Part shown: piece by piece, positions 7,523 to 56,700 of the stretch
Position numbering within the stretch: the first letter of the stretch is position 1
How the letters are laid out: every line of letters starts with the position of its first letter
Origin: Saccostrea cucullata
Lineage: Eukaryota
Length of the DNA stretch: 64,000 nucleotides
Assembly: GCF_032062105.1 (NCBI RefSeq)
Contig: NW_026927928.1
Coordinates: forward strand, 62,001 to 126,000
Direction of reading: 5' to 3'
Translations under genes and position numbers: made by a program
The notes under the pieces: model-generated
Told to the model about the DNA's origin: nothing
Seen by the model: the letters and a program-made list of their open reading frames with translations, nothing else
The model's database searches: none

Positions 7523-7659
7523 TTTAGCTCACCTGAGCCGAAGGCACACGAGAGCTTTTCTGATCAAATTTTGTCCGTTGTCTGTCGTCGTCGTCGGCGG
7601 TGTCGTCGTTGTTGTTGTAAACTTTTCACTTTTTAGTTCACCTGAGCCGAAGGCTCAAC

Positions 7660-7691
<32 letters not shown>

Positions 7692-9812: not shown

Positions 9813-13965
<4,153 letters not shown>

Positions 13966-14560: not shown

Positions 14561-15644
14561 ATTTATAGAGGTGCACGGTAAGGGTCTGAACCCATAAATC
14601 ATTAGTGCACCGCGTCTGATAGACCTGATTTTGTTTCGACAATAAACAAGTGTGATGTTTGCCTTTATATTCACCTTTTCCTTAATCGAAAACGTATCCA
14701 TTACAATACATGGATTGGACGAATTTAACCTTTGATATCTAATTGCACAACTATTTAAGAAAACATGAACGTTAAGATTCCGTTGTTTACAACTCGTATT
14801 GTTGAATTTTTAACATTCAGGAAATTCCCTTATCCATTATTCAACTATCGCACAATACATTCATTAAAAAAAGGTGTAAAATAATACGTTATCGATCGGA
14901 CTTGGGTTTGTTTGACATATTAAAAAATTGTTTAAAGAGAACAGGTGCAAAAAGTAAAACGAGTCAAAGTGGTTACAAGAAGTAGATTTTAATAATTGCT
15001 TACTAAATTAGAAATAAAGCAAATCAGTTGAGTCCTTGATCTTATCAACGCATAATTAGAGGTGATGTACTGGCTACTAGTACTTGTTCTCACATATTAT
15101 AAATGTCCAACCCTCAGTCTGTACTATTTACAAGTCAGTGGTACTATAATTCTTGTTCTCATATATTTTAATTGACAAACTCGCAATTTGTATATTTATA
15201 AGTCGGTGATATTTATAAACAAACAATGCACACTATTGTACATAAGAAATCCCACAAAGTAATCAAATCATTTTTCTTTTTATAGTTTCAACAATCTAAG
15301 ATTTATGGGTACACAGATCGGACGCTAGGTTAAGTTCATGGGAATCCAGTAATACTATACGCAAGGTCTTGACCTTCTAGCTGAGCTCTATTGGGCTTCC
15401 ACAAAGCCCAATAGTGCAAACCAGAAATAAATAAAGAAAAAACGAAATTATTAAATAAAAGAAAACGAAATTATTAAATAAAAAAAATTATTAAATAAAG
15501 AAAAACGAAATCATTAAGTTAAGATACCATCATTGATAAGTTTAACAAAACAAAACGCGGGGATAAGGGTGCCAGTCACGCGTGGTTCATTCCACAGTGA
15601 GTGTGTCTTCAGCGCCAAACAGGGACGTGTTATTCACAGAGAAA

Positions 15645-15825: not shown

Positions 15826-18800
15826 CATTTTGTCCGGCGTCCGTCTGTCTGTCTGTATGAAAACTTTTCACATTTTTTACTTCTTCTCAAGAACCACTGG
15901 GCCAATTTTCAACCAAGCTTGGCACAAAGTATCCTTGGGTAATGGGGATTCAAATTTGTTTAAATGAAGGACCACGCCCTTATTCAAGGGGAGATAATTC
16001 AGAAATAGTGAAAATTTGGTGGAATGTTTTAAAAATCTTCTTCTCAAGAACCATTGTGCCAGGAAAAATGAAACTTATAGGAAAGCATCCTCAGGAAGCG
16101 TAGACTAAAGTTTATACAAATCATGACCCCCGGGGGGGGTAGGGTGGGGTCACAATGGCCAATTAAAGTTTAACATAGAAAAATAGAGGAAAATTCTTTT
16201 AAAATTTTCTTCTCAAGAATACAAAGGCATGAATGATCATATTTATACAGAAGCATCCTCAGGTAGTGTATATTCAGGATTGTTCAAGATATGACCCCTG
16301 GGGGTAGAGTTGATTCAAATTTCCAAGTTTTACATAGAAATATGTAGAAAAAAAAACTTTATAAATTTTCTTTTCAAGAATGGCAAAGCCATTGTTAGTC
16401 ATATCCATATGGAAGCATCCTCAGGTAGTGTAGATTTAAGTTTGTTCAAGTCATGACCCCCTGGGGTAGGGCGGGGATACAATGTAAGTACAAATGTAAA
16501 GGACAAAAAGCCACAGGTTGTCAAAGAAATATGAAGCATCTTTAGTTAGTGTAGATTCAAGTTTGTTCTAATCATACCCTGTGCTCTTTAAGGATTGGTT
16601 GAAACCACTTTTGGGTTTAAACTTTCCAATAATAAATTGATTTCTGCTTTTTCCCAAGCTATAGTGCTCAGGTGAGCGATGTGACCCATGGGCCTCTTGT
16701 AGAATGTTCAGGACTATTAAAGAATTTTTTAATAATGTAAAGAATTACGCAATTATAATAATCCATTGGATGCTTTGACATATTCAAATTTCCCTGCAGT
16801 GAATTTTAATAATGCCATCAAACTTTGCAAAATTCGATTGGTAACATATCATTTTACAGCCCGGCTGTGTTGTTTGATTAGCTATAGGTGACAAATGATG
16901 TATTGCCATGGGAATTTTCTAAATGTTACAAATTTTATAGCCGTTGTATACACCGGAATCCTAACAGATATGTTAACTTCTTTTCCCAGACCTACAGGGT
17001 CAATTGATCAAACTGGTCAACGCATCACATTATTGTAAAGTTTGAAGATAATGAAGGCTGAAACGTTCCCTGTAGTGAATATTCACTCCACTTTGTCTTG
17101 TTAAAATATAAACCGAAGATTCTAATTACATGAGAAGATATAAATATGTAATTTTTCAACAAGATAAGAATGCCTTAAGTTTTCAAAGAAAACAATGTCA
17201 GAATGGCAATTTCTTGCGAGACAATCGGCTCTTATTTCCTTGGAATTTTGCATTTTATTGATATATTTTGGCACATTTACTTTAATATGTTGTAAAAGAT
17301 ACACGGTTAACTACATGTACTTACATTGCAATTATGTATTACAAATACAACAAAACATTAATTTGGAAATATGCTGAAAATTGTGGCCCCTAAGTTGAGG
17401 AAGAGGCTATAAAAGGATTTTTTTAAAGCAAAAAAAATTGGAAAATTAAATGTATTAGCGTAATTGAGGGGTTCATTCCAGAGTAAGTTTTATCTTCTTT
17501 AGAATACTTTCTGGATGGGGCAGAGAAAACTCGTGCCCCCTTCCTTAGAGCCATGTTTCGTTATGACTCACTAAAAATATTTCAATTTCCAAGTACTGCT
17601 TGTGTTTTTACAGTCCTCACAGATAATTTATGAAAAACAAAGTAGAACTAAAAGCTTTTTATTAAGATGCCTTTCATTTTTCATATACTCGTATTTTACT
17701 TAACCGAATATATCGGAAATAACTTTTAAAAATTAATTAAAACTAGATCTTGGTTTGGTCGGGATGTTCTTTCGATACTGCTAAAAGGAAAACTAAATTC
17801 ATTCTCAAAAGGTCCGCATAATCTTATTCGGTAGCTAAAACAACTTTTATTTGGGGATAGGTTAAAGATTGCACAACAAAACAGATACCTACTAACTGTC
17901 CTTTACCATTACTGAATTAGAAATTTACATGAGGAGTACACGAATTTCTAATTCAATTAAGGAATGTTTTTTAGTTTTGTGTGAGTTATTGGTGTGTGAA
18001 TCACACAGACTTGTCACGTAGGCATATTTCATGAAGCGCGCTTCATGAACAGGGCATAAATATTGATTCGTAAACGACATAACCTTGTCACAGGTCCGAT
18101 GATTAATAATGCCCTGTTCACACGAAGAGTTTAATTCGAATTAAACGTAAGTTTACTGCGAATTAGCTTCGCTTAGCGTTCACACGGAGAATTTAATGCG
18201 AATTAGTTTACTTCGCATTAGTTTACTGCGAATTAAATTACTTCGCATTAGCTCCGTGTGAACGCTAAGCGAAGCTAATTTGGATTAAATATTGGGGCAT
18301 GCGTAATGGCAAAATTAAGTCAAATCCGTCATGTCGGTGGTCAGCTTTAAGTACTTGTGCTATTTTAAGTGAAAAACTAAGAAAAAATATGTTAATCACT
18401 GAAATATGTCTCCAGACACTGTGGCATTATGTCTAATGCATTTGCTTCTGCATAAAGTGACGTGATTTGCAAATGACGTCATAATAGCCTTCCCCACGCC
18501 TGACTGTCGAAGTAAAAATTTAATTCGCATTAGTTTACTTCGCATTAGCTGTCGTGTGAACGCTATTTAATTCGCATTAGTTTGATTCGCATTAGTTTAC
18601 TTCGCATTAATTTACTGCGAATTAAACTTGCCGTGTGAACAGGGCATAACATTATGTTTGAAGGAGAGCAAAGTCATATTTTTATTTTTAAAAAAGTAAA
18701 AACGTTTGACTTGAGCAAGTCTGAATAGTTTATACATGTATTTTTCATGGAACGTTTTTTGAAATTGAATCTGGATGGACTAAAATCTATAAAACAGCAT

Positions 18801-20050
18801 TGTATTACTTTGTGATTTTTTTCAGGACACAAATTATGTTTCTAATATTGACCATCGCAACCAGCCTGCCTTTGTCAAATGCAACGTTACCTAAGCCACC
18901 ACAGATGCAACAGTTTGAGACGGAAGAGGATATGTTGAGAGCATATATGATTGAGGGTTATACATATGAAAAGATGCTTCTGTGTTTATCATTGTATCAC
19001 AGCATTACATGGAGCGTCCGTAAACTTAAACAAAGACTAAAATCTTTCAACCTCTATCGAAGGAAACACATGACTCCTCTTCCAATCGTTGAAGATAAAA
19101 TAAAAGAGGAGTTAACTGGCCCTAACAGTAATGTTGGGTACAGAGAAATGTGGAGGACACTACAAAGAAAATATAAACTTGTTGTTGCAAGGAATAAAGT
19201 AATGGAAATTTTACGGAGATTGGACCCCCATGGCAGTGAGAAAAGGAGGACACGGCGTTTGCAAAGACGAATTTATATCAGTGATGGTCCTAACTTTACC
19301 TGGCATATGGACGGTTTTGATAAATTAAAACCGTATGGATTTGCAATTCATGGTGCTGTAGATGGATTTTCCAGACGTGTCATGTGGTTAGAAGTATGTG
19401 CCACTAATAATGACCCAGCTGTTATTGCAGGTTATTATTTGAATTGTATAGAACAAATGGAAGGAATCCCAAAGAATCTTAGAACAGACCCTGGGACCGA
19501 GAACAGCACAACAGCAGCGATACAAACAGTTTTTTCTGTGAACGAATTAAGTCACAGGTTTGTCACTTCTGTAAGGAATCAGCGTATAGAGGCATGGTGG
19601 AGCTATTTTAAAAGAAACAAAGCTCAGTGGATGATGGACTATTTCTCCGATTTGTATTCAGTCGGTATTTACAATCCAGATAATCGATTTCAGAAATCTT
19701 GTTTTCAGTTTTGCTTTATGAATATATTACAAAAAGAACTCGAGAGTACCGCATTAGCATGGAACTCTCATAGAATAAGACCAAACACAGGCTCGTGTCC
19801 TGCAGGAATTCCAAATGAAATATATTTCTTACACGACCTCTACAGCAAATCAGACTTTAAACAGCCAATCAATCAGGACCAAATCAACAATATGAGAGTA
19901 AACACTAAACCTAAAAAGTTGTGTGATGATAACGATGTAGAAGAATACTTAGAGTATGTCAAATCCTTTGCAGATTGGGATGAACCAAGTGATTTTGACT
20001 CTGCGTTAAAACAATATTTGAGACTTATGCGCCTCTCTGGCGAAAATTAA
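15645..20050 (+). CDS. IS3/integrase-core DDE transposase (2 exons)
   Basis: Exon 15645-15661 (MSVLKR, AG|GTAAGT) joins in phase 2 to exon 18826-20050. IS3-type HTH GYREMWRTLQRKYKLVVARNKVMEILRRL. Catalytic WHMD...LRTDPGTEN...NQRIE with D(33)E spacing. Frame uninterrupted. Confidence 0.88.
15783..16700 (+). mobile_element. HINE/Helitron-N element with Cg170-type repeats in the transposase intron
   Basis: TTAGCTCACCTGAGCCGAAGGCTCAAGTGAGC...CTCAGGTGAGCGATGTGACCCATGGGCCTCTTGT. Confidence 0.85.
18110..18646. mobile_element. PIF/Harbinger-like MITE
   Basis: TIR TGCCCTGTTCACACG / CGTGTGAACAGGGCA, TAA on both sides, internal TTTACT(G/T)CG(A/C)ATTA repeats. Confidence 0.8.
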
Positions 20051-20274
20051 CAACATAGATAGATAGTAATAATTAATAAAAAAAAAAAGGCTTAAGAGGT
20101 ATTCAGAAAAGGAAAGTGTACATGCATGCCCTGCATATTCGCGAACTGGATTTCAGAGGTCAGAAAGGCGTGAAAGATCTACATTGTATTTAAATAATAT
20201 TGTTTTTAGAGAGCAACTGTTCATTAAACTTGGATTTTTATAATTCGTATTCGAAAATTCAGAAATGTATAGTT

Positions 20275-21021
20275 TTTGCCCCATGCTTCCGTCTCCGTCT
20301 GTCCAGCTGTCTTTCTATTCGTCTGCAAAAACTTTAACACGACTATAACCTTTGATTGGTTTGAGCAATGGGTCACATATTTCAAAAATATAATCCTTGT
20401 GACAATGCTTTTCTTTACGTATCAACATATTTGACCCCTTGACCTTGGAGTTTAAAATAATCCAGCCATAAATTACCTAATATTATAACCATGGCCATAT
20501 CTTTTGAACGATTGGTGCTATAATAGCTCTCAAATTTCACATGTGTATTTATTGAAACAAGATCTTTCAAGGAATATAAATATCTCTGACCTTTTGACTT
20601 TGACCCAGTTAAAAAAAATTAAAAATTCACAAATCTTTTGAACAATTAGTACAAGGGTCTTCATATTTCATAGGTGTATTTAATGTGACAATGCATTCCA
20701 TACCAACAAATTTGACTTTTTGAACTTAGAGTTTGACCTGTTTTTGAAAAAAGTTAAATTTGGATTTTGAACTTTTGAACATTGGTGCTTCATGTTTGGT
20801 TTACATTTCAAAAACCTTTAACCTAAGCCAAAAATTTTAATAGCAAGTGTCTGGGCTCTCCTTTTTCACATATATATTCATTGAGAACAAGTCCTTTCTT
20901 CCGATAACTAGTCAACCCTTTAATCCTTGACCTTGAAGTTTGACTAGTATTTGAGGAACTTTAACCTTCGCTAAAAGCTGACATATTGGGAAGAAAAGTG
21001 TTTCACGAACACATCCTAGTT
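20275..21021 (+). mobile_element. Degenerate HINE/pearl-like element between the two convergent transposon genes
   Basis: CCGTCTGT tract, repeated TTGACC...TTGACCTTG cores, 3' GTGTTTCACGAACACATCCTAGTT. Confidence 0.55.
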
Positions 21022-21328
21022 TTTTTCTGTCTTGATATACGATTACTTTTAATTTTACACGACATCCATTAAAACATGTTTATTTTTCTGTTTGGTTATT
21101 ACAAGGATATTATTGACTACATGCATAAACTGGAAGTCAAATCCTTAAAAAATATTTCCAGAATTTTGGTCTACTCTTACAAAAACACACACGTAAAATA
21201 TTGTGTGTAATTAGATATTCAATCTGATTTGTTTGCCCCATGCTATATGTTTTTGACTGATGTTGATACATGGAAGTAGTTTGTAATAGTTCTTCAGGAC
21301 ATGTACTGGGGAGTACCAAATGAGTCCT

Positions 21329-24300
21329 TTAAAATCTCCCAAAGCTTGGAGAATTCAAAATTCCGAAGTCCATATTGTCCTTAAATTCTTCATAGGACTG
21401 GACTACAGGTAACTTCAGCTCGTTTGCGCATGTGTTTGCTATTGGGAATTTTGATATGAAATTCTGCCCCTCCTCTTCTGCGTGAATGAATGATACTGAT
21501 GGTGAAGGAGTGAATCCTTGTGGGGGTATTGAATCAGATCCAGTTGCAAAAATAAGAATTGCAGAGAGTGATGCTTTGGCAGACTTTTCTGAAAGTAAAG
21601 GCATTAGGTATTGAATTAAGTGTTGACTTTCACAGTAAATAGATATATCTTTTTTTATTCTTACATGTAACATCCAACAGTATTCCACTTGACCATAATT
21701 GTAATGTAAAAATATTTTTTCTAATATTCATTAAGATGACAGAAATTCGGAAGGGGCTTGATATGTTGCTAGAAATAAATACCTTCAGCATCCTGGATGT
21801 AATCCCTCCAAAACCCCAATGTTGTATTTTCAATTAAACGCTTGCTACTTCCTACCACACTCATCTTGGGTATAAACAGACTTTCGATTTCAGCAGCGGT
21901 TGGTTGCATAGGACTATATATGAAGCAATTTCTGAGAAGATTTGGATGTTTGATGATTTCTTGTAAAACACCTAGAGTTTCCAATCCCTTTCTCAACCTA
22001 TTAAAAGAAATAAACTTATTCTTCTACTAAAACAAGCAAGTTTAATTAAAAACCTATATATAAGTAGTACATAATCTGCAAACTTACAATAATATACATT
22101 ATCCTATATATACGTTATCATAATTAATATTAAGCGTACCTTTCGTAAGCTGACCTTGTTCTTCCTAGAACATACCATCTCTTTAAATCTTCTGCAATAT
22201 GATATTTTTCCTCCACAGATTTTACATGATGGAAACATCCAGCTATCGTAAGAATACTTGCCTCGGCATGAAGGGTATTTTGAAGATCGTGTATGTTCTC
22301 TGCTTCCGTTATCTGTTGTTATATAACATTTCATAATTTATTTGTTTTCATATATTAATATAGAACAATGTCTTACAAGTTTTTAATATAGTCGATATAT
22401 CAGAGATTCTTTATTTAAAAATTCACTAATTTTATTTAATAACTGTCAAAATACATATTTCTATGGGAACATGAAGTGCATTAAGAATCCTCAGAAGTAT
22501 CTAGTATTCAGTTTACCCTCTTTATAGCATTTCTGACTTCCTCATTGGTTATATCGTCCAGCGGAACATGGATTTTCTCGGGCCCTTGTACCAAAGCATC
22601 AAACAGTGTTGGTGAGAAGAATTTTGGTGAAGGTCCACCATGTACAAGACAAATCGCCAACATTTGTCCGGCCATATAATAATCATCTCTTTGTAAAGCT
22701 GCAATGAACATAAGAAAGCATAAGATCATGGAACATTGGAAATATGCAGCTTACGTCATTTCAATCTCTTACAGACAAAACAATTATTGACAGACAATGA
22801 AATGGGCAGGTACAATTCGACGCGGTTGACCGAGAAAATGTTGGATTGAAATTCTAATTTGAAATGCATTTTCAATCCCCTTCAGCTACTCTAGAAGGCA
22901 TGGTTTTTTTATGCACCCAGAAGACAAATACTTTTAACTCCCAAAATTTTTAATATATTGTTTGAAATTCATATTCATATGATTTATTTTTAGCCTTAAG
23001 AAGACATATAAAATTCATAGAAGACATCGATTAATTTTTTTTCAGAGGAGAGCCATTTGATTCCAAAAATGACGATCGAGACAGATCACTCATACACAGG
23101 ACAGAATATATTTATTTCTAGAATGACTAAAACTTTTTTTTTAACTTTTGTCTCCACTGAAAACTTTTGAAATATTTTCTTCTTCATTAGCATGTTTGTT
23201 CACCCCCCCCCCCAACACACATGCATATACAAAAGAGAAATCAATTTTGTGTCTCTTATTGTTATAGTAGAAGACTAAGCTTCCTGTATGAAACAAGCGC
23301 CTGTGTTTATACCCCCTCCCCCCCCCCAAAAAAAAAATACATTTGTATGCGTACCCTGACTATCAAGAGCCAATATTCTGGATGTAATGGGGCCCTCAAA
23401 CATACACGTTTGGGAAAGGCTTCCCATAAGCAGGCGAAGGAACTCCCTTCTAGGGCCACCCTGATCCAAAGCCTCTTCCGATGCCCCTTCATCATCAGTA
23501 AATTTCACAAATAAGGTGTTTTCAGGTGAAAATGATGTTCTTTTGAATCCTCGACAAGCCCCATCCCAAACATTTTTTCTATTGATGTTGAATCTGTTTA
23601 TCTCTGTCTTCTTAATTTTTTGACTAAGATCCATCAAAATGTCTTTGACCGTTGTAGAAACTACTTCCCTAAAATATACATGCTAGAAATTATTCAATAA
23701 AATGAAAATACATGCAGCATGCAATTACACAAATAAGGCACGTAGCAACAGGAGGGGGATGTCCTCCCCCTTTTTACAAACATAACTTTATACTACTGTA
23801 TTAATAATATTCATTGAAGGCTGGGTGCTCCGCCCTCCTCCCACTTATACCCACAGTAAGGTAAAAAAGGGTAATATAGCATTATATGTAGATAATATGG
23901 TACTGAAAAAAGTCCAATCCCCTAACCACAACCCTACCCCCACCACCACGAAATACGATTTTCGAGTTTGGGCAATTTCTATTTTTTATTTGATTGTTTT
24001 TTAAGATAGAATTTTTTGTTATCTGATTGTCCCCTTTCAAAATTGATGCTATGTCACTGCAAATATCTTTATTTATGTAATATTTACTGAACATTGTCCT
24101 CTTCCTTATCAAGAAGGGGCGGTAGTGGTGAGACTGTTTTATCCTCTTTATCATCGCTTTCATCTGGCAATATGGTGATGTACTCACTATAAAGATATTG
24201 TTTTTATAAAAAAAAACATACAACCTATAATTTAATTTAAAAATATTTTTGATAATTTATAACATTACTAATAAAAAATATAATATAAATACCTGTAATT

Positions 24301-27176
24301 TAAGCAATGTGCCCCTGACATCGAAGAACTAGTTGATGGCTGGTCGTCCTTTTGTCTTTGAATGTTGGTTTGGGTTCTTTTTTTCCGAAACTTTATTTCT
24401 GGAGTGCCTGACGAGTCCCAAGAATCATCCAAGTTTATTTCGGGTAACTCGTCAGAGTCGGAGTCTTTTTGAACTGTTAAAAAATGAAATTAATGCATTA
24501 GCAATTAAACACATACAGAGACGTCGAAACCGGAGGGTGGGTGGTGTGGTTATCCCCCCTTATTTGTAGACATGTTCATAATATATAGGCATTTTAAATT
24601 GGTGTTTATATACATTTTTTGTTCAGCTCATACCTCCTTTCTATACCCAATTTTTAATTTCCTCTTGACACCTTTGGCATATGGGCAGATAAAATCGTTT
24701 AAAGCTATTGTAAAATAAATATTTCCAATGATGAATTCTCCGCTTTTTCTAAGTTATTTTAAAACATACCTTTTTCGTACTCCGTTTTTGGACATATATA
24801 TAGTGGTACTTTTTGATAAGGAAATCCAAGAAATTCCTTGTATCCACGAAGGGTCATGGGAGATGATGTGCCAGGAATACAGGTAGCTAACGAACCATCT
24901 TTATACAGAAGAACGTAACTGGTATCTGGTAGACCTTTATTAAGAAGGATATGCTTTTCCTGTGCTAATCTTATTAAGTCACCACCAGTGCTACTTGGTA
25001 GGACTTCCAAGGTAACGCCACTACCTCTTACGTACTTTGGTGCCCCTGCGTTGCATCTCATTAAACCTACAGTTATCTAATTTGAAAACAGAAAAAAAGA
25101 TATACATGGAAGATTAGGACATATGAAAATTAAGAACCGCACAAAAATGATCACAGTTAAAAAAAAAAAACATATTCTGTGATATTTAGCATATTTGTTG
25201 AATTAGAAAAAAACATACTTTTTGAAATACACTAAATGTAATTCAAATTTGTCATTTTGGTCGCATTTTATGCCGATATAACTATATTAAACCAGTAAAT
25301 TTTGATTATAAGTAATGAAACTTAACCTAATTAAAATAAAATGTTAGTTCCGCTCGCATACTCGCTTTTCTAACATTGATGGATACAGTGTGAAGTGTGG
25401 TGTGTTCATAAACCTACTATAGGTAAAAAAATCTCCGAACTAGCTCAAAAATCCTAATTTGATAAGGGGTGGGGTTTTATTTTGTTTTCACAATCAAAAT
25501 TCTTAATTATGCCTGGATGCTATGCTATGCTCCCATGCTTGAAACCTTGTTTATGTGTAATTATAATATGTATGCTTATACAGTGTAATTGGCGAACATA
25601 TATCATATATTCAGTTAAAAATCAGCAGGACGCAAAAAAAATAAAATAGTGCACGTGATCTACAGTTGTCAAAAAGGCTTTATATATATTCGTTGTTTCA
25701 ACAGATCTGCTGGTGTGTATACTGAATTCAAAGGATCAAGGGACATTTTTTCAAATTTGTACCATTGAATTAATTGATCTGTCAGCAGCGTTTTACCGCA
25801 TGCCAAGAAAACTTGTAGACACATTAGAGCGAACTTAAACGTTTATCTCTGATTTTTGTGCGCGGGGCCATTAATGTCATCAGTTTTGAGGGAAGGATCT
25901 TAAGTTTTATATTTCAGTTAGAATAATAAGTATTTAGATGCCTTTGTGTCCCTTTTCTTTCTTTTGTTGTTGTTGTTGTTGTTGTGTGTGTGGGGGGGGG
26001 GGGGGTCTAAATCAAATGCTGTTATGAAGTAAAATAAAAGAAAATGAAAATTAAATTAAGAATTTTAGTTTTACGAAAAGAATGAGTTATATATACAGCA
26101 TGAATTCTTTACCAAACATTCTTTCTTTTCTTGTTACATGTCTAGATGTCAAGATCACATCATAATACGGAACAGTCAATTTTACGAACAGTCGCAGCTA
26201 TTGCAGAAAAAAAATTACATAACCCGCTTACGCGGGTTAATATGTATTTTTTCTGCAACAGCTGCTTCCGTTCATTCCAGTAACAACAAACAAAGAAAGC
26301 ATTTTATTGTTTAAATAAATTAGCCCATCCATCCTTAAACTGTCCATAAATTTTTAAGCAAGATGTGTAACAGACAAGACAGTGGGTTCCTTTGAGAAAG
26401 TAATAACGGTAATAAATGACCCATAAGTAAAATGAAGGTATTTCTGGTGGTGAATTAATTTTAATATATACAGGTAAACGTGCAAGAATGCCAGGGCCTG
26501 GGTTTATAAGCAAAAAAAATTAAACTGCTTTCCTAACGTGAAAACCCTATTTCAAGTTGGTGGTGGTGATTAGTTTGGATGTAGGGATAGTCGTTGAATT
26601 CTGAAGCTTCATACCTATGACTTTTAAGTTTTAATATCAACTTCATGCAGATTTCGATGGTCTGCATTTTCAAAGGGGTGGAGCCCAAGCTCACTTTTTA
26701 GTTAATTTTAAATAATTCAAATAAGTCTATTTTTTCCTTTGACTCTTCAGAGTCTGATTAAAATTGTTTCATACACGTCAACTCAACCAGAAGGGTGTCA
26801 TCGTCTCAAGCCACGGTTCTGAGTCTACATGTTTGTCTCTCTCAATGGGAGAGGATCGTACATTTTGGCCGTGGTTTGCGATGATGAAAGATTGTATGTG
26901 CGTGAAAACCATGTATTCTGCATTTATATGTTCGCCTGAAAGAAATCTTTAGCTATACCAACCTTGACACGCCCTTCGCATTTTCTACCCTTTTTAGAGA
27001 AAGGAAATGTAGTTCTCCGTTCCTGTTCTTTTTCTCTTCTAAAGCTTTGAAACTCATCAAAAGTTGGTAATGTTACATGTTTTGTTCTTTCAGTGCCTGT
27101 AGTTTCTGTAAATACCACACATTGTATTTGTGATGGATAACTACAATGTAGAAGTTGTTTATATGAGACAGAGAGA

Positions 27177-27208
<32 letters not shown>

Positions 27209-27347
27209 TAGAGAAAGAGAGAGGGGGAGAGCCCGAAAGAGAGAATCTGTATATATACATACCCAAGGACTTGTCAATTTTCTTCCCACACTTTGAGCAA
27301 TAATTATCATTCTGATTAGGTGATCCACAAGAAGAACAAAATGCCAT
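21329..27347 (-). CDS. Zinc-ribbon + HECT E3 ubiquitin ligase (G2E3-like HECT), 10 exons, one apparent homopolymer frameshift
   Basis: Exons 27347-27263, 27105-26963, 25076-24770, 24473-24293, 24186-24088, 23668-23355, 22698-22517, 22312-22140, 21997-21783 and 21588-21329. Motifs CSSC...CSKC, EEALDQGGPRREF, LIFATGSDSIPPQGF, PIANTCANELKLP (catalytic Cys ~21429), C-terminal SFGRF*. The frame needs one extra A in the run at 24378-24384. Confidence 0.85.
26187..26273. repeat. Imperfect palindrome in a HECT-gene intron
   Basis: GCAGCTATTGCAGAAAAAA...TAACCCGC-TTAC-GCGGGTTA...TTTTTTCTGCAACAGCTGC. Confidence 0.6.
27165..27245 (+). repeat. (GA)n microsatellite in HECT-gene intron 1
   Basis: Visible; it generates the spurious SLSLSL ORFs. 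Confidence 0.9.
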
Positions 27348-27729
27348 TTTAGCGACGTCCTTATGAAATGAGGGGAATGGTGAAGTAAAAATATCCACGA
27401 AGTAATCAAATCATCCTCGTTATTGTTTCAACAACCCGTGATTTATGAATATACAGATGGGGCGCTAGGCTTATCCCGGAGGGAATTTTATAATACGATA
27501 CGCAAGGTCTTGACCTTTCAGCGATTCAAGCGCTCTTTGAATTGGATGTCATTAATTTTAATCAAGCAGAAACAGCCACCCTCTTGATCCTCTATGCATA
27601 ATGCCACACATCAACAAATTAAGTATACCGTTAAACAATTATTGACAATTTACTTCAAACATTAGATTGAAGTATTTGTTTCAGTTGATATTTTCTCTTT
27701 CTCCCTCACTCTCCTTTTTATTAAATAAT

Positions 27730-36547: not shown

Positions 36548-38482
36548 CTAAAGAAAAAAAGTTTCATTTGAAATCCAAAATGTCCGCGTATGAAAAGCAA
36601 TGCAAAATTATGAAGTGATGTGCATTTTTTTTCAATATACACTGTATATTTTTCTCGATGGTTGGAAATACTAGACTGCAGCTCTCATAATTTATATAAA
36701 TTGACATTTTACTCTGTATTATAGCTATGTTTTTATCTTTGAGATGCTAAAAAATGTGTATGTTAATGTTTATAAATATGCATGCACTATCATATGATCA
36801 TCTAAATCCTGTATTCTCAGGAAATCATATTTTATCTCAAAGCATTCAAAGAAAAAGAGTTTTCAACATTTAATATATCCCTTCTATACACACTTTCAGT
36901 AAATATACACCATTGAATTCTAATGAGGGGTGGTGATTAGCTAGCAGTTTTTGGGCATCACTAGTGTTAAACATATATATTTTTACACGATCATGTAAAA
37001 CACATAAAATTTAAAAGTGCACAAATGTATATGGTGTTATTGAAACACATGTTAAAAATATGTTTCACATGATTGTGTTTAACATGTGTAAAAATAAACA
37101 CACGGTGTATTTATACACATGAAAATATGTTAAACATATGTTTTATATATGTTATACTTTAAAAGGATCAATAAGCACCACATTCACACATTTGGGTTTT
37201 GTGGAAAAAGTTTATTTTTGCGTGGTCTCTGTGTCTTCTGTCCATTTTTTACAAAAGTGAATTCGTTTCTTTGAATCAAAATAACAAAAATAACGTTTCA
37301 AAATCATGGAGAGAAGACCCAGAGATAGAAAATTTTAGAAAACCGTGTTTAAAAATGTACCATTTTTGTACCAAATGTCTTATCTGGCAAATCATCAAGT
37401 TATATTTTAGCAAATCAAAGCTCAATTTCGGGAAAATATTTTCCTTTTCCGTTGCACAGGAACCCGATTAATAGCTTTAAAAATGTTAAAATTTTATGTG
37501 ACATGTCGATTAAACTTTTACTTTTCAATTACGCCACGATTTCTGCTGAATGCCAATCAAAGCGCCCACGTTCTTTTCACTTTTTATCTGTCGCATTATG
37601 AGCACTTCGCCCGTCTTATCCACCCATCATCTTATTGAGGCACATCTCGTCGGTTCCTACGGGCCTGAAGGGTTGAGATTAGAATTTCAAACTTCCACTA
37701 TAATTAATCCCAGTCGAAAAAAGCTTTTTCTCTGTTTTCTACTTGAGAATCATGGAGAGTGGGAATGATCATACCATGCATAGATCTAGAGGGCTTGCAG
37801 AGGTATGTATGTACTCTTACTTGGACCCCCCTCCCCTTCCCAGAGAAAACGCGGTTTCCTCCTCCGAGACAGATCTACATGTATTTGAAATTGGTATGAA
37901 AAGTCATAAGTATGAGGCTTTAAAAGTCAAAGCTAAAGCTTAATCCCCCCCCCGACCCCCCACACTCACGAAAGTTTTTTTTTTAAATGGGAAATGAGTG
38001 AACGTTAGTTTTTGTTTGTTTGTTTTATTTTTTTAATCAAGAAATTGGTCCCCAGTCAAAAAAATCCTGGATACCCGCCTGCATAATCATACATATTGAT
38101 CAGAGATATAAAAATATATAAATGATATTGATAGACAATTTAACATAACTATCGAGCCCTGATTTATTGACTGATTTTCTAACTCATGTTAATCCGGTGC
38201 CAATATTTCAATTTCATGTACTAGTATATTGAACCCTCACTTCCACAACTTACAATGCCAACGTTTTTATTTTTTTCTTTGCTTGAAGTGGCTGTTTTAG
38301 ATGATCCAGACATGTTGTAATACAACACAAGCCAATCTAAAACAACAACAAAAAAATATATAAATGTTTATTCACCATGCAATCAAGGGCCCGGGAGGGG
38401 GGGGGGGGCATGAACAAATTATTACAATATGATTACATTGTATGATCGAAGGGTTACCCGAATTAATATCTAATGTAATAAG

Positions 38483-39059: not shown

Positions 39060-39435
39060 AGTCTGAACTGTTACCAATCAATTATCTTGTTAAACATAAT
39101 TGGTCTCCATTATAATATCATTGCAGAAGTAACTGTATCAATTGCTTTATATAGCCCCAAAACTTGTAGAACTTTGAGTACAAAGTCTCTCAAGGAGACG
39201 TAATTTGATGAGTGGATTTTACATACATTATTTTAAGAAGAGTTCAAAGTTGTATATCATCACTGCACCAACATGACCAAGGTGCGCTTTTTTGTACATA
39301 CTGAGAAAATTACACCTTAGAGAAAAAAAGTGTAGTAAAATAGCTAAATTAAGCTATACCGAATAGCTTAATAAAGCTATATACATGTAGCTATTTAAAG
39401 GTATATAGCTAAATCAAGAGATTGTACTGGACCTG
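39060..39435 (-). mobile_element. Partial inverted copy of the MITE at 40383-42174
   Basis: Reverse complement aligns with ~40383-40740 and ends in the TIR AATCAAGAGATTGTACTGGACCTG. Confidence 0.75.
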
Positions 39436-39571
39436 GTCTATTTGATTGAATTCGTCATACTAGTATTTGCCATACGTACGCAAGCTCTGTAGCTATAATC
39501 ATAATTTTATCTCCAAATAGTTTGATTATAGACAAAAATGCCATTCATAATTAACATGATTAATGCTCAAA

Positions 39572-40090
39572 TTACCTTCAAAGACTAAAGCATTTGCCTT
39601 GTCGTCAAGGAAGAGTAAAATAAAGACAAACCGAAAGTTGGAAAAGTTGGGAATTCCTTGAAATCAGCAAAGGGAGAACATCGTCGGAAACTTTTCAACT
39701 TAATTAAAAAATGGATTTGATTGAAGCGTTTAATTATGTCTAAATTATTTATTGAATACAGTACATATTGCATTTCAATATGTCAGTGATTGTTAATGAA
39801 CATCATTGATATTATACATATTTTTAGGTTCTCGATAATTGATCGGGTTCGGGGATGACCAAAACGAAAGTAGATTTAGATTTGTGTTTTTGTTAAAAAT
39901 GACTGTATTACTTTTAGTGTATAGAAGCATAAATGTGCATGTGACATCCAAACGCGAGCCAAACAAACAAAGAAAATGATGATTTCCTGTCCATAGACCT
40001 AATTAACTTCTTTGTTTATAGCGACTTCAAAAGTATACGACAAAGTTCTTGATGAAGTAGGCTGATACTAAGGTACATTAATTGGTATAG
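39572..40090. promoter_or_regulatory. Candidate bidirectional immune-inducible promoter
   Basis: CAAACCGAAAGT (39627-38), GGGAATTCC (39649-57), TTCCTTGAA (39654-62) and CAAAACGAAAGT (39860-71). Flanked by a minus-strand donor (AG|GTAAT at 39576) and a candidate plus-strand donor (AAG|GTAC ~40072), between divergent genes. Confidence 0.55.
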
Positions 40091-41032
40091 GTATCGTAGT
40101 GTTTTAATTTCTTCTTTATTTTGTTGTTCAATTGTAAAAGTTTTACAATAGGTGTTTGAAACTACCTAAATGACCACATTGTACAATGAAATATTGTTCG
40201 TAACTACATGTATGCGTTATCGATATATCTAAAAAGTTTTGTGTGTCAAGGTCTATTTTAAACACATCTTATCAGATCTTTAAAAGGGAAAAACACCATC
40301 TTACTCCCCCTAATACTTTGCAGCAGTCACACCATTGCATGCAAATAGCCATATCTGAATGTGAACATTACAGTCAGTTCATCAGGTCCGGCACAATCTC
40401 TTGATTAAGCTATATAGCTTGATTTAGCTATATAGCTTTATTAAGCTATTCAGAATAGCTTGATTAAGCTATTTTGTCAGACTTTTTTCTCAAATGCGTT
40501 ATTTTTTCAACATGTGCAAAAAGTCGCACCTTGGTGCAGTGGAAATATTAAACTTTGTTTTCTTCTGAATACAATGCATGTAAAAATCACTCACCAAATT
40601 GCGTCTCCTTGAGAGACTTTGTACTCAAAGTTTTAAAAGTTTTGGGGCTATTGATGAGTGACCACACTGTTATTTCTTGAATGAAATTATAAAGGAGGCC
40701 AGTTATGGCCAACAGGATAATTGATTAGTAACAGTTCAGCACAATGAGAAGCAATCATACTTACCCACGCCTCACAACACACACAGTTACTCAAACAATG
40801 GAAAGTCATATTTTGCTTAAAAGTATTCAACAGCAGCAATGTTAGAACTTTCTGTGATTTAGGTTGTATTTTTGATAGTCCATAGTACATATATGAAGAG
40901 TCAAATATTTGCGACTTTTTGTTTATATCTTTCAAAAAACGTTTTTGTGAAAAATTGCATATAAATAGCTTTATCAAGCTATTTTGAATAGCTTAATAAA
41001 GCTATATAGCTTTTTAAAGCTATATAGCTTAA

Positions 41033-42149
41033 GGCCATATAAAATTAATCTTTAGATTCTCATCCCCGCCCGCCCCTCTCAAAGTGTCCCGCCCCGATGT
41101 TTTTTATTTTGATTTTTGGGTGTTAATAAAGGTATTTTCGTGTATTTTTATTCAGCAAGAATATGGGTCAAAGTTTAAAGGTTATCTCCCGTCTGCATTA
41201 AAAGTCATGTGTCGCTATTTATAGCAAAAGAGCCATGTGAAGAATGGAGAAAAATCGGCAGTAAAAGCAATTTAAATATGTAAGGAAAAGATCATTTGTC
41301 AGTATAGAGAAGGCAGAGAAGAAAAAATAGCATAAACACATCTAGATACCATCACTGGCATGAGCAAGTATTTAGATTGACTGATTGTATACTGTTTAAG
41401 TCCCTCTCCAGAATATTTCACTGATATGGAGAGACTCACCATTGCCGGTGAAGGGCTGCAAATTTAGGCCTATGCTCGGCACTTACGGAGTTTGAGCAGG
41501 GAGGGATCTTTATCGTGCCACACCTGCTGTGACACGGGGCCTCGGTTTATACGGTCTCATCCGAAGGACCGCCTCATTTAGTCGCCTTTCACGACAAGCA
41601 AGGGGTTACTGAGGACCTATTCTAACCCGGATCCCCACGGGTGCAAGTATTTAGAGAGATTGTAACTAAGTAAAAATAGACGAGGAAAATGACACCTGGT
41701 CAAGTTAAATACAAAATGTATAACGATCTCCAGCTGTGTGTGATTTTGCTTTTAAAAAAAACCAACAACATCGTAGACAGACTTTAAAGAAGGCCTAGAT
41801 TTTTCAGTAGATAATTATTAGAACATATTTTGCAAAATAAGAAGTCACACATACACAATTTATTGGTATCCCCACCTCATTTGTTCAGGGTGTGCCGTAT
41901 AATGTGTACTTGATAATTTGTTACTTAACGATAAATATTTCATATTTTCTTTAAATATTTAAAAGAATATGAAAAGAATTAAATCTATTCATATTTGCAA
42001 TAACATAATGAAAAAATTTGTATGAGGCGTCCATGTTTTGCTGATACGTATAATTTAACAATTATAAAAAATAAAAAATAAAATCCGCCCACCCACCCCC
42101 ATTTTTTAGCAAATTAGGATGAGAATCTAAAGATTAATTTTACCTGGCC
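41033..42149. mobile_element. Harbinger-like MITE (TAA TSD)
   Basis: TIR GGCCATATAAAATTAATCTTTAGATTCTCATCC / GGATGAGAATCTAAAGATTAATTTTACCTGGCC. Confidence 0.7.
41377..41642 (-). mobile_element. Bivalve SINE-type retroposon
   Basis: 13-bp TSD GCAAGTATTTAGA (41364-76, 41643-55), CAAT-like tail, body GACACGGGGCCTCGGTTT...GGTCTCATCCGAAGGACC. Confidence 0.8.
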
Positions 42150-42362
42150 TAATCAAGAGATTGTGCTGGACCTGTTCATTTACTTTGCTTACAAGGACCG
42201 GAGAATAAAAGAATTGATGAGTGCTCTATCATTCCAAGAATATCATCGAAGCATTATAAGAATTCAAACTATTGTATAAAATGTGGAGGAAACTTTCCAG
42301 TTTTTTTTTATTGTAGTTAACGATGTAGTTGTAATTGTAGTTGATGAAGTAGTTGTATTAGA

Positions 42363-44519
42363 ATGGAGAGAAAAGAAGAAAACATGGATGTGGATGGTCC
42401 TGTTCTTCGTAAACAAGGTAAATAAAATTTTAACAAAACCCAGGGCTCTATAAACACCACCTTTTGAACCGCTGTCCTAAGACATCCCTTCTAACGTGTA
42501 TTATACAATTATTGCATGATAGTGAGGGAGACATGAAGATTTCTTCGCCCATGAAAAATCATATTCCCCGAGGGCAATGCCTGAGGGGAATATGATTTTT
42601 TCATGGGCGAAGAAATCTTCATGTCTCCCGAACATTCATGCAATAATTATGTTATTATACCAAATCAAGCACAATGCAGAAGATATTAAAGAGAATCCAA
42701 TAAATAAAGTTAACATTTGATGAGAACAAAATGAAATACCAATAGGTGTAAGTCACACCACTAGCGTTTCATAAAAAAAAAAAACCCTTCGTGACAAGTC
42801 ATTCTGATTTACACACTGCAGTGTAGTTACATTCATTACCCACTCATGGAAACACTTTTTCTAACTATTTATACTTTAAGATTTTATATCGACATAATTA
42901 TTCAAAGATTTAAACAATCGAATTCATTATACTAGTAAATCATCGCATTCGCCGCATTGTGACATCACAATCGGGGAACACTACGTGAAAGACGTTCTGT
43001 ACACCTCAGTTGATTACATTTAGATGTAGGATAGCGTAGTCAGGCAAGGTGAACCGAATGCCGGAAACACGAAGTTTTTTTTTGCAGGGCAAACACGACG
43101 GTCACAAGACTGCTTCAGCCAATCAGATTCCTCTTTACTTGTGTTTATTTATATGAGGTATAATAATGTAATTTGTTATAGCCTTCATGTCCATCCGTCT
43201 GTCTGTTAGCTTTTTGTGTCCGGTGTCGAATAATTTACATTCCGGATATATTATGTTCCAACCGGAACCTTAGAATTATGATATTGGTTCCGGCTTTTAC
43301 TGTAAGTTAGGTTCCGGCTATGGCTACTGTTCACTGTAGGTAAAAGGGGTTCGAAGACTTATCAATGCTATTCATATAAATAGTAAAATACAGATCTGTG
43401 TCTTTAATACAGTTCTTCTTCTGTGTTATTTTTACAAATCTTAATACAAATGTATTTGTACTTACGTGCATAAATAAAATCTTGTTGAATTTTATTCAAT
43501 AGTTTTTAGCGGTGTCTATATTTGATCATATTTTGTCAACATAATTAACATTGAAATAAAAAAAAAAACTTCACCTGATGAGGAAAAATAACCAACAAAC
43601 AGGAACACCTTTTCTTCAAAATGCTTATAAATTAATTCCCTTTTTAGATCCATCTCCTATTATGTTCTTTTATGTAAATTCATTAATATAGTTGGTTTTA
43701 CAAGAACGCAACTATGGGTGCAAGGTAATTAAAATATTACCCAATAAGTTTTTTATCATAAATATAAATGATCTATCACCATTATCATCTGATCAGGGTG
43801 GTCATGTTTGCTTACGGCGATTCGCATGACTGCGAAATTATTTGTATCGATAGAACCAAAGGCAAGCTAGGGTGTCGTAAAACAGCATGATGGGGCATAT
43901 CAATGGAAACAAGTTTCCCACTTTCTTTTGTTTACAAAGAATCAAAATTATCAGCTGGAATTTCATGAATTAATATAATATTCAAATCAAATGGATTAAT
44001 ATAATATTCAAATCAAAGACATCAATAAATATGAATGTCTCTGTTAAAAAGACCACATATTCTGACATAAAATGTAAACATATGTATGTCTTACGCCGGT
44101 TTAAATCCTGCTGTATCATATACGAAGGTATTAGAGAAAGAAGAAAATTAAAATTAATAGGCAATATTAATTACATGTATAAATAAAGAGTTTAATACGG
44201 TGCCTGCATGCCCAGAACGTTTATTATGGCCGGAACAAAACTTATGTTGAGTGGAACATTTATTATGGCCTGGAATCAATATTATAGGTAACTATTTAAG
44301 TTCCGGCCAGAACGCTAAGTTACCCGGAACGTTTATTATGTGACACCGGCTCATAACTTGCATACTATCAGGTCAAGAATTATCAAACTTTGTCAATTGA
44401 TACATCTTGGGTAGAAGGGGTGTCATACATTAAAACAAGGTCACTTTGACCTTTAATTAAGATGGAGATGTCCTGTCCTCAAGATCTGTGATCAAATAGG
44501 TGTTTCATAAATCTTTTTA

Positions 44520-53700: not shown

Positions 53701-56700
53701 TGCAACCTAGGTAAATTTATTTACTTCAGCCTAAAGACTAGAGAATACTTGTTAAATTAATCATTTATGTCATATATTTATACATAAGTGTCATATGTTC
53801 ATAATTATCATATTCTCCTGTAAACCTGCATGTACAGTCATGTTTGTATTTGTTTGTACTGATGAGCTATAAAGCTCAAAGTCAATAAAGAACTTGTTTT
53901 ATAGAGAAACATGATGTCTTGAGTAACAATTAAGTTAATTAAGTAATTACATTCCTTAATATTTTGGGAAGTGACAAATTGGGAAAATTAATTAACACAT
54001 TCAATTTGGAAAAAGGTACCTTGTTTGAATTGGATCATTTTAACTAACCCCAATTATAGAGAATAAAGAGCCCTGAAACTACAGTTTATCCATGCTGTCT
54101 GTATCAACTGAGAGCAAATGTCTCTGGGGAAAAAGTAAAACTTCCCAAGCAATGATTTTAATGTATCATGAACATGATTAAGTTAGAGAGATTGTTAAGA
54201 AATAGATTTTGAAAGTATGTAGTTAAACTCTTTAACTCACTTAAGCCCAAGTGATCTGTCTGTCCATCCATATATTTTTCTATAGCTGTCTGTCTACATG
54301 TAGCTGTCCATCTACAACTTTTCACATTTTCAATTTCTTCTCAAGAGCTATACTGGACCATTTTAGACAAAGTAGGTACATGCGTGTCTCTGGGTGAAGA
54401 GGATTCTAAATTCTTGAACAAACTGGCAATTTAAGACATCCTCCCAAGGGGAGATAATTGAAAAAAGAGTGGAATGGAGTCATTAAATTTTTTTTCTCAA
54501 TAACAACTGGACAAGAACAAGAGATGTTTGTAAAACACTTATGCCCCCCTCCCCCCAAATTGGAATTTTTTTGTAAGTCCAAGGGGCATAACTCTGTCAA
54601 AAATGGCACGATTGTACCCAAAACAGAACTTGACCTAGATATTAATGTGATATATCTGTAAATTAAATTTCATCTCAGTATGTGCAACGGGTGCAAAGAA
54701 AATGAACAGAAACTGCTAATAATTGAAATTTTTCTAAGTCCTAGGGGCATAACTCTGTCAAAAATGGTGCGATTGTACCCAAAACAGAACTTGACCTAGA
54801 TATTAAGGTGATATATCTGTATACTAAATTTCATTTCAGTATGTGCAATGGTTGCAAAGAAAATGAGCGGAAACTGCTAATAATTGAAATTTTTCTAAGA
54901 CCATGGGGCATAACTCTGTCAAAAATGGTGTGATCGTGCCTAAAACAAAACTTGACCTAGATATAAATTCATGTGATATATCTGTATACCAAATTTCATT
55001 TCAGTATGTGCAACGGTTGCGAAGAAAATGAACGGAAACTAAGTGGACTGACAGACCGACTGACCGACAGACAGCAGCAAAGCAATATGCCCTCCCTTCT
55101 TCGAAGAGGGGCATAAATATTGAAATTTATATGAAAGCTTTCTGAAATAGTGTAGACTCAATACTATTCTAATCATGGCCTCAAGGGGTAGGACAAGGCA
55201 ACAAAATATATGAGTTCAAATTTTAATATTGAAATGTATATTAGGAAAAATCTTGCTCTTAGGAACCATTCTAACAGAAAAGCTGAAAATTATGTAGAAA
55301 TAGTGTAGATTCTAAATTGTTAAAAAACAGTCCATGGGGTTAGAGTCAGAGCCACAATAGGGAATCAAATTTTTATAAACAATGAAAGACATAGGAAAAA
55401 TCTAAAAAAAAAAAATCTTCTTAAGAAACACTGGGCCTGAAAAGATGATCTTTGTGAAACCTTCATGAGGTTATTTAAATTAAATTATTAAATTTAAACA
55501 TGTATAATCCAGTCTCTTAAAGGTAAGGAGGGGTCATAATATTGAAACATGGTATTGCATTGGGGAAAATAAGATGCAGTTCCAAAGTGATTGATTCTTG
55601 TGATTGTTGTGGCCCATTAACCTGACATTTTATATGCAATTTTAATATCTTTTTTCACTATTTGAAAAAAAAAATCACTAATTAATATAAAAACAACTTT
55701 CATTTATTATAAATTACAGTATTTTTACTATTGAAAATGTAGTTAAATACAATTATCCATTTACTTCTTTCTTTCAGATATGGAGTGCAATTGGGTAAGT
55801 AAATAGCACATGTAAAAATATTACTTGTAGGGGTGTAACAGTATATGGCTAGCTTGTCTAATTATGATTATATAACATGATACACTCATTACACTGGGCC
55901 TGTATCATGATATTTTTCATGATATTTTACTAATCACCTTTTATAGATTTTAGGTCACCTGAGTCATTCAGGTGACGTATTGCTATCCATTTTTGTCTGT
56001 CATATGTTAACATTTGAACATTTTTAGCTTACCGTATAATCCCTATTAACCGCCACAGGCGCTTAGAAAATTGCAAAAAGGGGGCTGTTATTTTGGTATT
56101 GATTTACTCTTCACAGATACATATAACTTATACAAATAGCACACTTACAATAGAACTTTTCCAAAAACCCTAGTGTAAATATATATCAATAACTGTATGG
56201 TGTAATGATATGTATTTTCAAGGGGATTTTTGGTTTATGGAAAATCTATGGGTTTATGAAGATTTGATTTTATGGCTGAAGAATTGTTCTGTTAACTTTT
56301 GTAAATGATAATCTACATTTCGTGGTGGACATGAATTCATAGGTCTCTTCATACCTTGAAAACAAGGAAAATAAAACCCATAACATTTTATAATTTCACT
56401 GTACATCTTAGATTTTATTTTACACTTGTACAGTTTTTCATCTGTTGAAGCTTATGATTCTATCATTTTATCATTTTACAGGAAAAATATTCCTGCAAAG
56501 GCCCAGGAAACATGACTTGTCAGTTTGCTCATGAGTACTCAAGTACACAAAAAGTACATCGCTGGAACATTACAGAAACTACTTACGATCTTATTGACCA
56601 CTTTTGTAAACTAGAAAAAGAAAACTTGAAACAAAAGTTTGCATATATATTCTCAGAAAAAATACAACTGATGATACGATCACACACCACGACAGAAGAT

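What the first reader, a model, noticed from the sequence alone, without database searches (positions are those of the whole stretch)
39436..40382. Head-to-head macro-DTC and triple-macro genes share a compact IRF + NF-kB + STAT motif cluster
Seen: within 36 bp lie CAAACCGAAAGT (IRF-E-like), GGGAATTCC (kB-like) and an overlapping TTCCTTGAA (exact TTCN3GAA). A second IRF-like site is at 39860, and candidate splice donors point outward on both strands. Established: human PARP9 and DTX3L are head-to-head on an IFN-responsive bidirectional promoter next to PARP14, and oysters have IRF, STAT and Rel. Inference: a conserved or convergent bidirectional ISG-like module in a mollusc, possibly co-expressing two interacting proteins.
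Basis: partly seen in the sequence, partly recalled or inferred. Interest (0 to 1): 0.7.

Follow-up and report, generated by a model that had tools for sequence, protein, structure and literature searches.

The report
Oyster IRF/NF-kB promoter between Deltex paralogs
Two related oyster ubiquitin-ligase genes point away from each other across a short stretch of DNA where one of them starts and the other likely starts; the stretch carries a paired IRF and NF-kB-like motif that recurs in front of several immune-type genes and is predicted to switch them on during infection, but the pair is not the vertebrate PARP9/DTX3L arrangement.

Summary
The motifs are at the stated coordinates. The 947-bp interval is a unique spacer between two inverted transposon copies. 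One RNA contig splices from it (donor 39575) into the minus gene, so that gene's non-coding first exon lies here, ending about 25 nt from the IRF-like site. The plus gene's start is not shown; one shallow contig and one candidate donor are consistent with it. The 'triple-macro' gene is not PARP-like: beyond the window it ends in RING-DTC. Both genes are macrodomain-DTX3L-like paralogs in a 10-gene cluster, and no PARP domain was found on this contig. Published work dates the PARP9/DTX3L locus to after lungfish, so conservation is excluded. The IRF+kB pair is a recurring element: 20 sites genome-wide against 0 for the reversed control and about 6 expected. Eight of the 19 other sites precede cGLR, Ro60, IAP or TRIM-like genes. 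The STAT site does not recur (0 of 19) and is probably chance. Verdict: a likely IRF/NF-kB-type promoter, about even odds that it is bidirectional, convergent at most. Inducibility and binding are untested.

The parts
39436..40382 (.). Unique 947-bp spacer between two inverted transposon copies; holds the promoter region
   Evidence: Single match in the genome; bounded by inverted arms I11
39627..39638 (+). IRF-E-like site (AAANCGAAAGT class), first half of the IRF+kB composite
   Evidence: Sequence; composite recurs at 20 sites; binding untested
39649..39657 (+). kB-like 9-mer, second half of the composite, 10 nt after the IRF site
   Evidence: Only GGGAATTCC in the window
39654..39662 (.). 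TTCN3GAA overlapping the kB site; probably incidental
   Evidence: 28 such sites per 64 kb; 0 of 19 sister composites have one
39860..39871 (+). Second IRF-E-like site, with the same TAGAT flank as sites at 152 and 344 upstream of another paralog
39576..39603 (-). Non-coding exon 1 of the minus gene (3' end exact; 5' end is only where the contig stops)
   Evidence: Loose end of the 1668-nt X1 contig reads across the 38336/39576 junction; coordinates
38254..38336 (-). Exon 2 of the minus gene with the start codon at 38313 (20 codons; missing from the public model P0001)
   Evidence: X1 contig piece and both junctions; matches the N-terminus of ortholog P0002
32663..36547 (-). Remaining coding exons of the minus gene: KH-like pair, two macrodomains, RING, DTC
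   Evidence: Pfam, tblastn, spliced contigs, model and Atlas match to KH_DTX3L for the ortholog
39798..39968 (.). Transcribed-looking stretch; candidate part of a non-coding exon 1 of the plus gene
   Evidence: One 176-nt contig at depth 2.7 in 1 of 4 runs, strand unknown, no splice seen
40070..40078 (+). Candidate splice donor AAG|GTACAT for the plus gene
   Evidence: Best plus-strand consensus match, second best by a recalled weight matrix; no RNA support
39063..39435 (-). Truncated transposon copy in intron 1 of the minus gene
   Evidence: 78% identical over 376 nt to the right copy
40383..42174 (+). Transposon stack: element with terminal inverted repeats and 5-bp flanking direct repeat, with nested insertions at about 41032-42150 and 41363-41643
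   Evidence: I15, I25; joints
42317..42417 (+). First coding exon of the plus gene (ATG 42363), preceded by an acceptor-like T-run and AG
   Evidence: tblastn of P0016 residues 1-18; sequence; the acceptor is inferred
55778..55794 (+). 17-nt micro-exon of the plus gene
   Evidence: from protein P0016
56482..64000 (+). Coding exons of the plus gene: three macrodomains, then RING and DTC exons running past the window to about 66564

Best explanation
The spacer holds the first exon of a macrodomain-RING-DTC (DTX3L-like) gene, and its IRF-plus-kB motif pair likely acts as an infection-inducible promoter that probably also drives the divergent paralog on the other strand. Predicted working: an oyster IRF binds the AAANCGAAAGT site and a Rel dimer the adjacent kB site. 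The minus transcript starts within some tens of bases on the IRF side (exon 1 shown), and the plus transcript would start on the kB side, splice at 40073 and skip the transposon stack to reach 42317 (inferred). The products are predicted ADP-ribose-directed E3 ligases that carry in one chain the macrodomain and RING-DTC functions that tetrapods split between PARP9 and DTX3L. The head-to-head layout likely comes from local duplication and inversion within a 10-gene cluster, not from descent from the vertebrate locus.
For: Shown: spliced contig joins 39576 to 38336 and 38254 to 36547, at GT..AG ends; both genes end in RING-DTC, 53% identical over 184 aligned residues; 10 main DTC exons on the contig in both orientations. 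Composite: 20 distinct sites vs 0 reversed control, 5.9 expected by independence, P about 4e-6, or 0.0075 for 13 after collapsing paralogs. Of 19 other sites, 8 lie upstream of Ro60 (3), Mab-21/cGLR-like (3), BIR (1) or B-box/NHL (1) reading frames, against 0 of 20 Ras-upstream windows with these families. In those 8 the gene reads IRF-to-kB, which here points at the plus gene. The IRF-like motif occurs 6 times in 195 kb around other DTC genes vs 0 in 196 kb upstream of Ras genes, 0.66 expected. X1 has one contig at 39798-39968 and none on the neighbouring unique non-exonic bins. Oyster IRFs activate ISRE reporters (PMC5557890); 5 of 5 DTX3L-annotated rows are 'sustained' after poly(I:C).
Against: No read or contig joins the spacer to the plus gene; depth was zero at 39646-40042 in 4 of 4 runs at 90% likeness and at 39969-40380 nothing was laid in 4 of 4 at 82%. 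The RNA support rests on one run whose contig differs by about 5% from the window. The IRF-like motif is not a general oyster ISG mark: 1 site, repeat-like, in 186 kb upstream of 3 IRF, 1 viperin and 16 TLDc genes. It is common (10,651 vs 7,120 control) and 8 of 20 sampled strict sites sit in three repeat families. One composite site precedes an hnRNP-K-like KH gene and one possibly a matrixin; for 9 of 19 no family was identified downstream. The pattern was derived from this locus. Orthology of the C. gigas induced genes to these two was not tested.
Confidence: 0.52

Rival explanations
1. The element is a one-way promoter of the minus gene; the plus gene starts separately, just right of the transposon stack.
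For: Only the minus exon 1 is shown. A kB-like GGAAACTTTCC lies at 42288-42298, 65 nt before the plus ATG. 1.8 kb of transposon separates spacer and ATG exon. At other DTC genes the IRF-like site faces the same way as it does for the minus gene. The plus donor is mediocre.
Against: A T-run plus AG at 42316 looks like an acceptor; the 39798-39968 contig; 8 of 8 identified immune-type neighbours read in the plus-equivalent direction.
Confidence: 0.3
2. The motifs are general core-promoter or repeat-derived sequence, or chance, and confer no immune inducibility.
For: The IRF-like word is frequent and partly repeat-borne; absent upstream of viperin and most TLDc genes; patterns chosen post hoc; one composite precedes a KH-domain hnRNP-like gene.
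Against: The spacer is single-copy; composite enrichment and gene-family bias; 0 strict sites upstream of 20 Ras genes.
Confidence: 0.15
3. The locus is a conserved counterpart of the vertebrate PARP9/DTX3L/PARP14 module with an IRF-STAT promoter.
For: Head-to-head layout, macrodomains most like PARP14 and PARP9 macrodomain 1, DTC most like DTX3L; a TTCN3GAA match.
Against: The partner has RING-DTC and no PARP domain; 0 of 69 PARP matches on the contig; PARP9 absent from invertebrates and the locus younger than lungfish; GAS in 0 of 19 sister sites.
Confidence: 0.03

Closest known systems
Human PARP9 (BAL1)/DTX3L (BBAP) bidirectional IFN-gamma-responsive promoter (Juszczynski 2006, seen only as cited)
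   Same: Head-to-head genes, a DTX3L-type ligase, macrodomains, IRF-type sites between them.
   Different: Both oyster genes are RING-DTC ligases; no PARP; the recurring partner motif is kB, not STAT; the vertebrate locus arose after lungfish; sharing is unproven here.
Macrodomain-bearing DTX3L of non-vertebrates (bioRxiv 10.64898/2026.04.23.720386, section 5; ESM Atlas cluster of 74 members, commonest Mollusca)
   Same: KH-like, macro, RING, DTC in one chain; also in Mytilus, Ylistrum and Dendronephthya. DTC His and Glu aligned to DTX3L are kept.
   Different: Here expanded to a 10-gene cluster, with two or three macrodomains per gene; the Tyr that I equate with DTX3L Y719 is Phe (numbering counted from the C-terminus, human length recalled); no RRM match found.
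IRF-E plus kB composite promoters of vertebrate antiviral genes, such as IFN-beta PRDI/PRDII (recalled)
   Same: Adjacent IRF and kB sites close to the start of an immune gene.
   Different: Single IRF half-site class AAANCGAAAGT with a 1-15 nt gap; binding by oyster IRF and Rel not shown.

Membership tests
PARP9/DTX3L bidirectional module | One partner is a macro-PARP | tested here: not met
   P0016 has macro, RING, DTC and no PF00644; 0 of 69 PARP matches on C10065
PARP9/DTX3L bidirectional module | One partner is a DTX3L-type RING-DTC ligase | tested here: met
   Best PDB match is DTX3L DTC, E 1e-41; both genes qualify
PARP9/DTX3L bidirectional module | Head-to-head orientation | tested here: met
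PARP9/DTX3L bidirectional module | Both transcription starts in the shared interval | tested here: inconclusive
   Minus exon 1 shown; plus only suggested
PARP9/DTX3L bidirectional module | Functional STAT (GAS) site | tested here: inconclusive
   Consensus matched, but background 28 per 64 kb and 0 of 19 sister sites; binding not testable
PARP9/DTX3L bidirectional module | PARP14 adjacent | tested here: not met
   No PARP domain match on the 317-kb contig (only the best candidates are scored)
PARP9/DTX3L bidirectional module | The two products form a complex | not testable with these tools
   Needs co-IP
Macrodomain DTX3L-like Deltex ligases | C-terminal RING followed by DTC | tested here: met
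Macrodomain DTX3L-like Deltex ligases | Macrodomain(s) N-terminal to RING | tested here: met
   Two in the minus gene, three in the plus gene
Macrodomain DTX3L-like Deltex ligases | KH-like domains | tested here: inconclusive
   Met for the ortholog of the minus gene (KH_DTX3L, TM 0.53); no usable hit for the plus gene
Macrodomain DTX3L-like Deltex ligases | Orthology to DTX3L by phylogeny against all Deltex paralogs | not tested
   The tree held only 12 invertebrate rows and no vertebrate Deltex
IRF/NF-kB-responsive ISG promoter | IRF and kB sites next to the start, recurring at immune genes | tested here: met
IRF/NF-kB-responsive ISG promoter | Factor binding and motif-dependent induction | not testable with these tools
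   Needs EMSA, ChIP and reporters

The most novel reading that the evidence does not exclude
Oysters use a defined IRF-E-then-kB composite as the native cis-element of an interferon-like regulon (cGLR, Ro60, IAP, TRIM-like, DTX3L-like genes), and at this locus it fires both ways, so that a bidirectional immune promoter for macrodomain and Deltex functions evolved independently of the tetrapod PARP9/DTX3L promoter.
Probability: 0.33. Interest if true: 0.68.

Novelty: new variant of a known kind. Interest (0 to 1): 0.47.

Why it matters
Oyster IRFs have been tested on mammalian ISRE reporters (PMC5557890); a short, listed set of native composite sites would make it directly testable which promoter element drives the oyster's interferon-like response, which matters for herpesvirus resistance in farmed oysters. 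The locus also offers single-chain macrodomain-Deltex ligases for testing how ADP-ribose-directed ubiquitination worked before PARP9 existed. It does not extend the PARP9/DTX3L synteny to molluscs.

Tried and rejected
Complex prediction of the two N-terminal regions: no answer, score 0.02, partner fold uncertain; no evidence either way. Metagenome scan for the motif cluster: 0 matches, so conservation of the spacer in other bivalves was not tested. Homolog searches for the plus gene: no close oyster ortholog found, so its N-terminus could not be cross-checked. Atlas search of the plus N-terminus: no usable hit. Spacer against the surrounding 184 kb: no homology beyond an 18-nt match at the IRF-like site at 152. 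Recent inverted duplication mediated by the flanking transposons: rejected, the copies are only 78% alike and the genes 29-53%. The motif as a general ISG mark: not supported. Opposite order kB-then-IRF: 9 vs 4 control, not above the 5.9 expected. Foldseek returned only macro and RING-DTC folds among the rows listed. Earlier findings of this scan: 3 look-ups, nothing shown. Runs listed but never laid (17 of 24) are not used.

Full report
Setting. The window is G000:C10065:62001-126000. Proteins encoded on this contig carry the source label Saccostrea cucullata. Coordinates below are window coordinates.

Observation. The IRF-like site lacks the first G of the recalled IRF-E consensus, the kB site is a 9-mer, and TTCN3GAA occurs 28 times in the window. 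An order-3 Markov model gives 0.064 IRF+kB pairs per 64 kb and no triple in 4 Mb; in 774 kb of real sequence the pair occurs 3 times and the triple only here. The patterns were chosen after seeing the site. The interval 39436-40382 is single-copy and is exactly the gap between two inverted copies of one transposon, 78% alike.

The genes. The minus gene has two macrodomains, RING and DTC. The plus gene has three macrodomains but continues past the window into RING (63555-64535) and DTC (64918-65139) exons; the database protein P0016 (1277 aa) has macro, RING and DTC and no PARP domain. The two are paralogs, 53% identical over 184 residues of RING-DTC and 29% over a macrodomain pair, and they fall in different branches of a 12-row tree whose deep forks are weak. 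The contig holds 10 main DTC exons, 8 on minus and 2 on plus, and 0 of the 69 PARP-domain matches in the genome. A model of the S. echinata ortholog shows two N-terminal alpha/beta domains that the Atlas aligns to KH_DTX3L. By the residue rules of PMC10221186 (passages), minus macrodomain 1 and plus macrodomain 2 keep the Asn, Gly and Ile-Phe hydrolase positions and the others do not (activity is predicted only).

Where the genes start. The public model of the minus gene is truncated. The ortholog's N-terminus pointed to a 20-codon exon at 38313-38254. A 1668-nt contig of run X1 covers exon 3 and this exon; its loose ends read into 36547 on one side and into 39576 on the other, using the donor at 39575. 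About 28 letters lie in exon 1, so the contig stops near 39603, about 25 nt short of the IRF-like site. A contig cannot show a true start. This rests on 1 of the 7 runs laid, about 5% different from the window. The plus gene's first coding exon is 42363-42417, behind an acceptor-like sequence at 42316 and 1.8 kb of transposon. No joint from the spacer to it was seen. At 90% likeness depth was zero at 39646-40042 in 4 of 4 runs; at 82% one X1 contig of 176 nt, depth 2.7, strand unknown, lies at 39798-39968, with 20 unlaid letters that the output did not show. It fits an exon ending at the candidate donor 40073, but could be an antisense or unspliced product. Expression of the plus gene in these runs was not measured, so the negative is weak.

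Is the motif pair an element? The strict word AAANCGAAAGTWG occurs 3,953 times against 607 for the reversed control, but 8 of 20 sampled copies belong to three repeat families; the shorter word is only 1.5-fold over control. Around DTC genes not used to define it (9 of 22 other DTC contigs plus 40 kb more of this one; 195 kb) it occurs 6 times in 5 of 10 regions, one repeat-derived, against 0.66 expected. Upstream of 20 Ras-family genes it occurs 0 times in 196 kb, and upstream of 3 IRF, 1 viperin and 16 TLDc genes once in 186 kb, in repeat-like context. So it is tied to this family but is no general ISG mark. The IRF-then-kB composite gave 21 rows, 20 distinct sites, against 0 control; independence predicts 5.9 (P about 4e-6; 0.0075 if paralogous sites are collapsed to 13 groups). 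The reverse order gave 9 against 4. All 19 other sites were examined. Downstream in the IRF-to-kB direction lie Ro60/TROVE (3), Mab-21/cGLR-like (3, one behind a retrotransposon), BIR (1), B-box/NHL (1), a KH hnRNP-like gene (1) and a distant matrixin (1, with a RING-DTC gene on its other side); 9 had no Pfam-identified downstream gene. None of 20 Ras-upstream windows matched these immune-type families (a rough control). Seven of 19 sites have a 9-nt gap, but four of those are related promoters. None of 19 has TTCN3GAA within 20 nt, so STAT is not part of the element.

Mechanism. Shown: exon 1 of the minus gene, domain content, paralogy, recurrence of the composite. Inferred: IRF and Rel binding, inducibility, and a plus-strand start. 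For sharing: in the 8 immune-type cases the gene reads IRF-to-kB, which here faces the plus gene, while the minus gene demonstrably starts on the other side. Against: no splice seen, and a kB-like site at 42288 could serve a separate start. I put sharing near even odds.

Literature. bioRxiv 10.64898/2026.04.23.720386 (abstract, section 5 whole, passages; figures and supplements not seen, and they may show which taxa have macro-DTX3L) dates the DTX3L-PARP9 locus to after lungfish and states that DTX3L lost its macrodomain when PARP9 emerged, so macrodomain-DTX3L is known. PMC10221186 (passages) finds PARP9 only in jawed vertebrates. PMC5557890 (passages): oyster IRF2 and IRF8 are poly(I:C)-induced and activate mammalian ISRE reporters. 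PMC7064767 (passages and supplement rows): cGAS, IAP and TRIM families are among the antiviral sets; 5 of 5 DTX3L-annotated rows are 'sustained' after poly(I:C), two with adjacent gene numbers; of 2 Ro60 rows one is 'sustained' and one 'recall opposite'. PMC8195618 (passages): a DTX3L ortholog sits in an ISG-like module in Aplysia. PMC11080071 (passages): KH-like domains mediate DTX3L contacts. In the listings (titles and abstract starts only) I saw no paper on this locus or on an oyster IRF+kB composite; the library lacks most subscription papers.

Verdict. Observation largely right, interpretation partly right. This is a likely IRF/NF-kB-type promoter of a macrodomain-DTX3L-like gene, possibly shared with a divergent paralog. 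It works like the tetrapod module at most by convergence and is not a member of it. The transferable result is the recurring composite. Interest 0.47; new variant of a known kind.

Noticed in passing
G000 genome-wide, 20 sites listed; loci L094-L110, L044: IRF-then-kB composite upstream of cGLR-like, Ro60, IAP and TRIM-like genes; in three Ro60 genes it lies within about 20 nt of an ATG. A candidate regulon list.
   Followed up: partly
window 38254-38336 and 39576-39603, minus: The public protein model P0001 lacks about 78 N-terminal residues; RNA shows two further exons.
   Followed up: yes
window 152 and 344; 39861: Three IRF-like sites share a TAGAT flank; the first two lie 80-280 nt upstream of a likely start codon (72, minus) of another macro-RING-DTC paralog, behind a possible non-coding exon donor near 470 that is also seen upstream of the paralog near 7088.
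   Followed up: partly
window 14820-14829: A full 10-bp kB consensus about 800 nt upstream of the macro exon of the paralog at 13303-14025.
   Followed up: no
window 2714-14025: Two recent tandem macro-RING-DTC paralogs; the one at 2714-3346 appears frameshifted after the RING.
   Followed up: no
window 18725-27410: An integrase-core ORF (plus) next to HECT-domain exons (minus), resembling a DNA transposon carrying a HECT gene, inserted in the cluster.
   Followed up: no
window 40383-42174: Three nested mobile elements: outer element with a 5-bp flanking direct repeat, a middle element with 34-nt inverted ends, and an abundant short element with a 13-bp duplication; RNA contigs show the empty forms.
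   Followed up: partly
L099:332-2351 (G000:C8284): Two composite sites in inverted orientation 2 kb apart, 98% identical over 425 nt; an inverted duplication or an assembly artefact at a contig end.
   Followed up: no
L014, L017-L021, L023, L026, L029, L033: The IRF-like word is carried by at least three repeat families, which could spread IRF sites through the genome.
   Followed up: partly
L003-L007 and L034-L035 (window-equivalent 101584-140684): Further macro-DTC paralogs whose RING appears missing (105858-106490, 119494-120024), and sulfotransferase-like repeats at 76352-93851 (label from recall of the sequence, no family scan).
   Followed up: no
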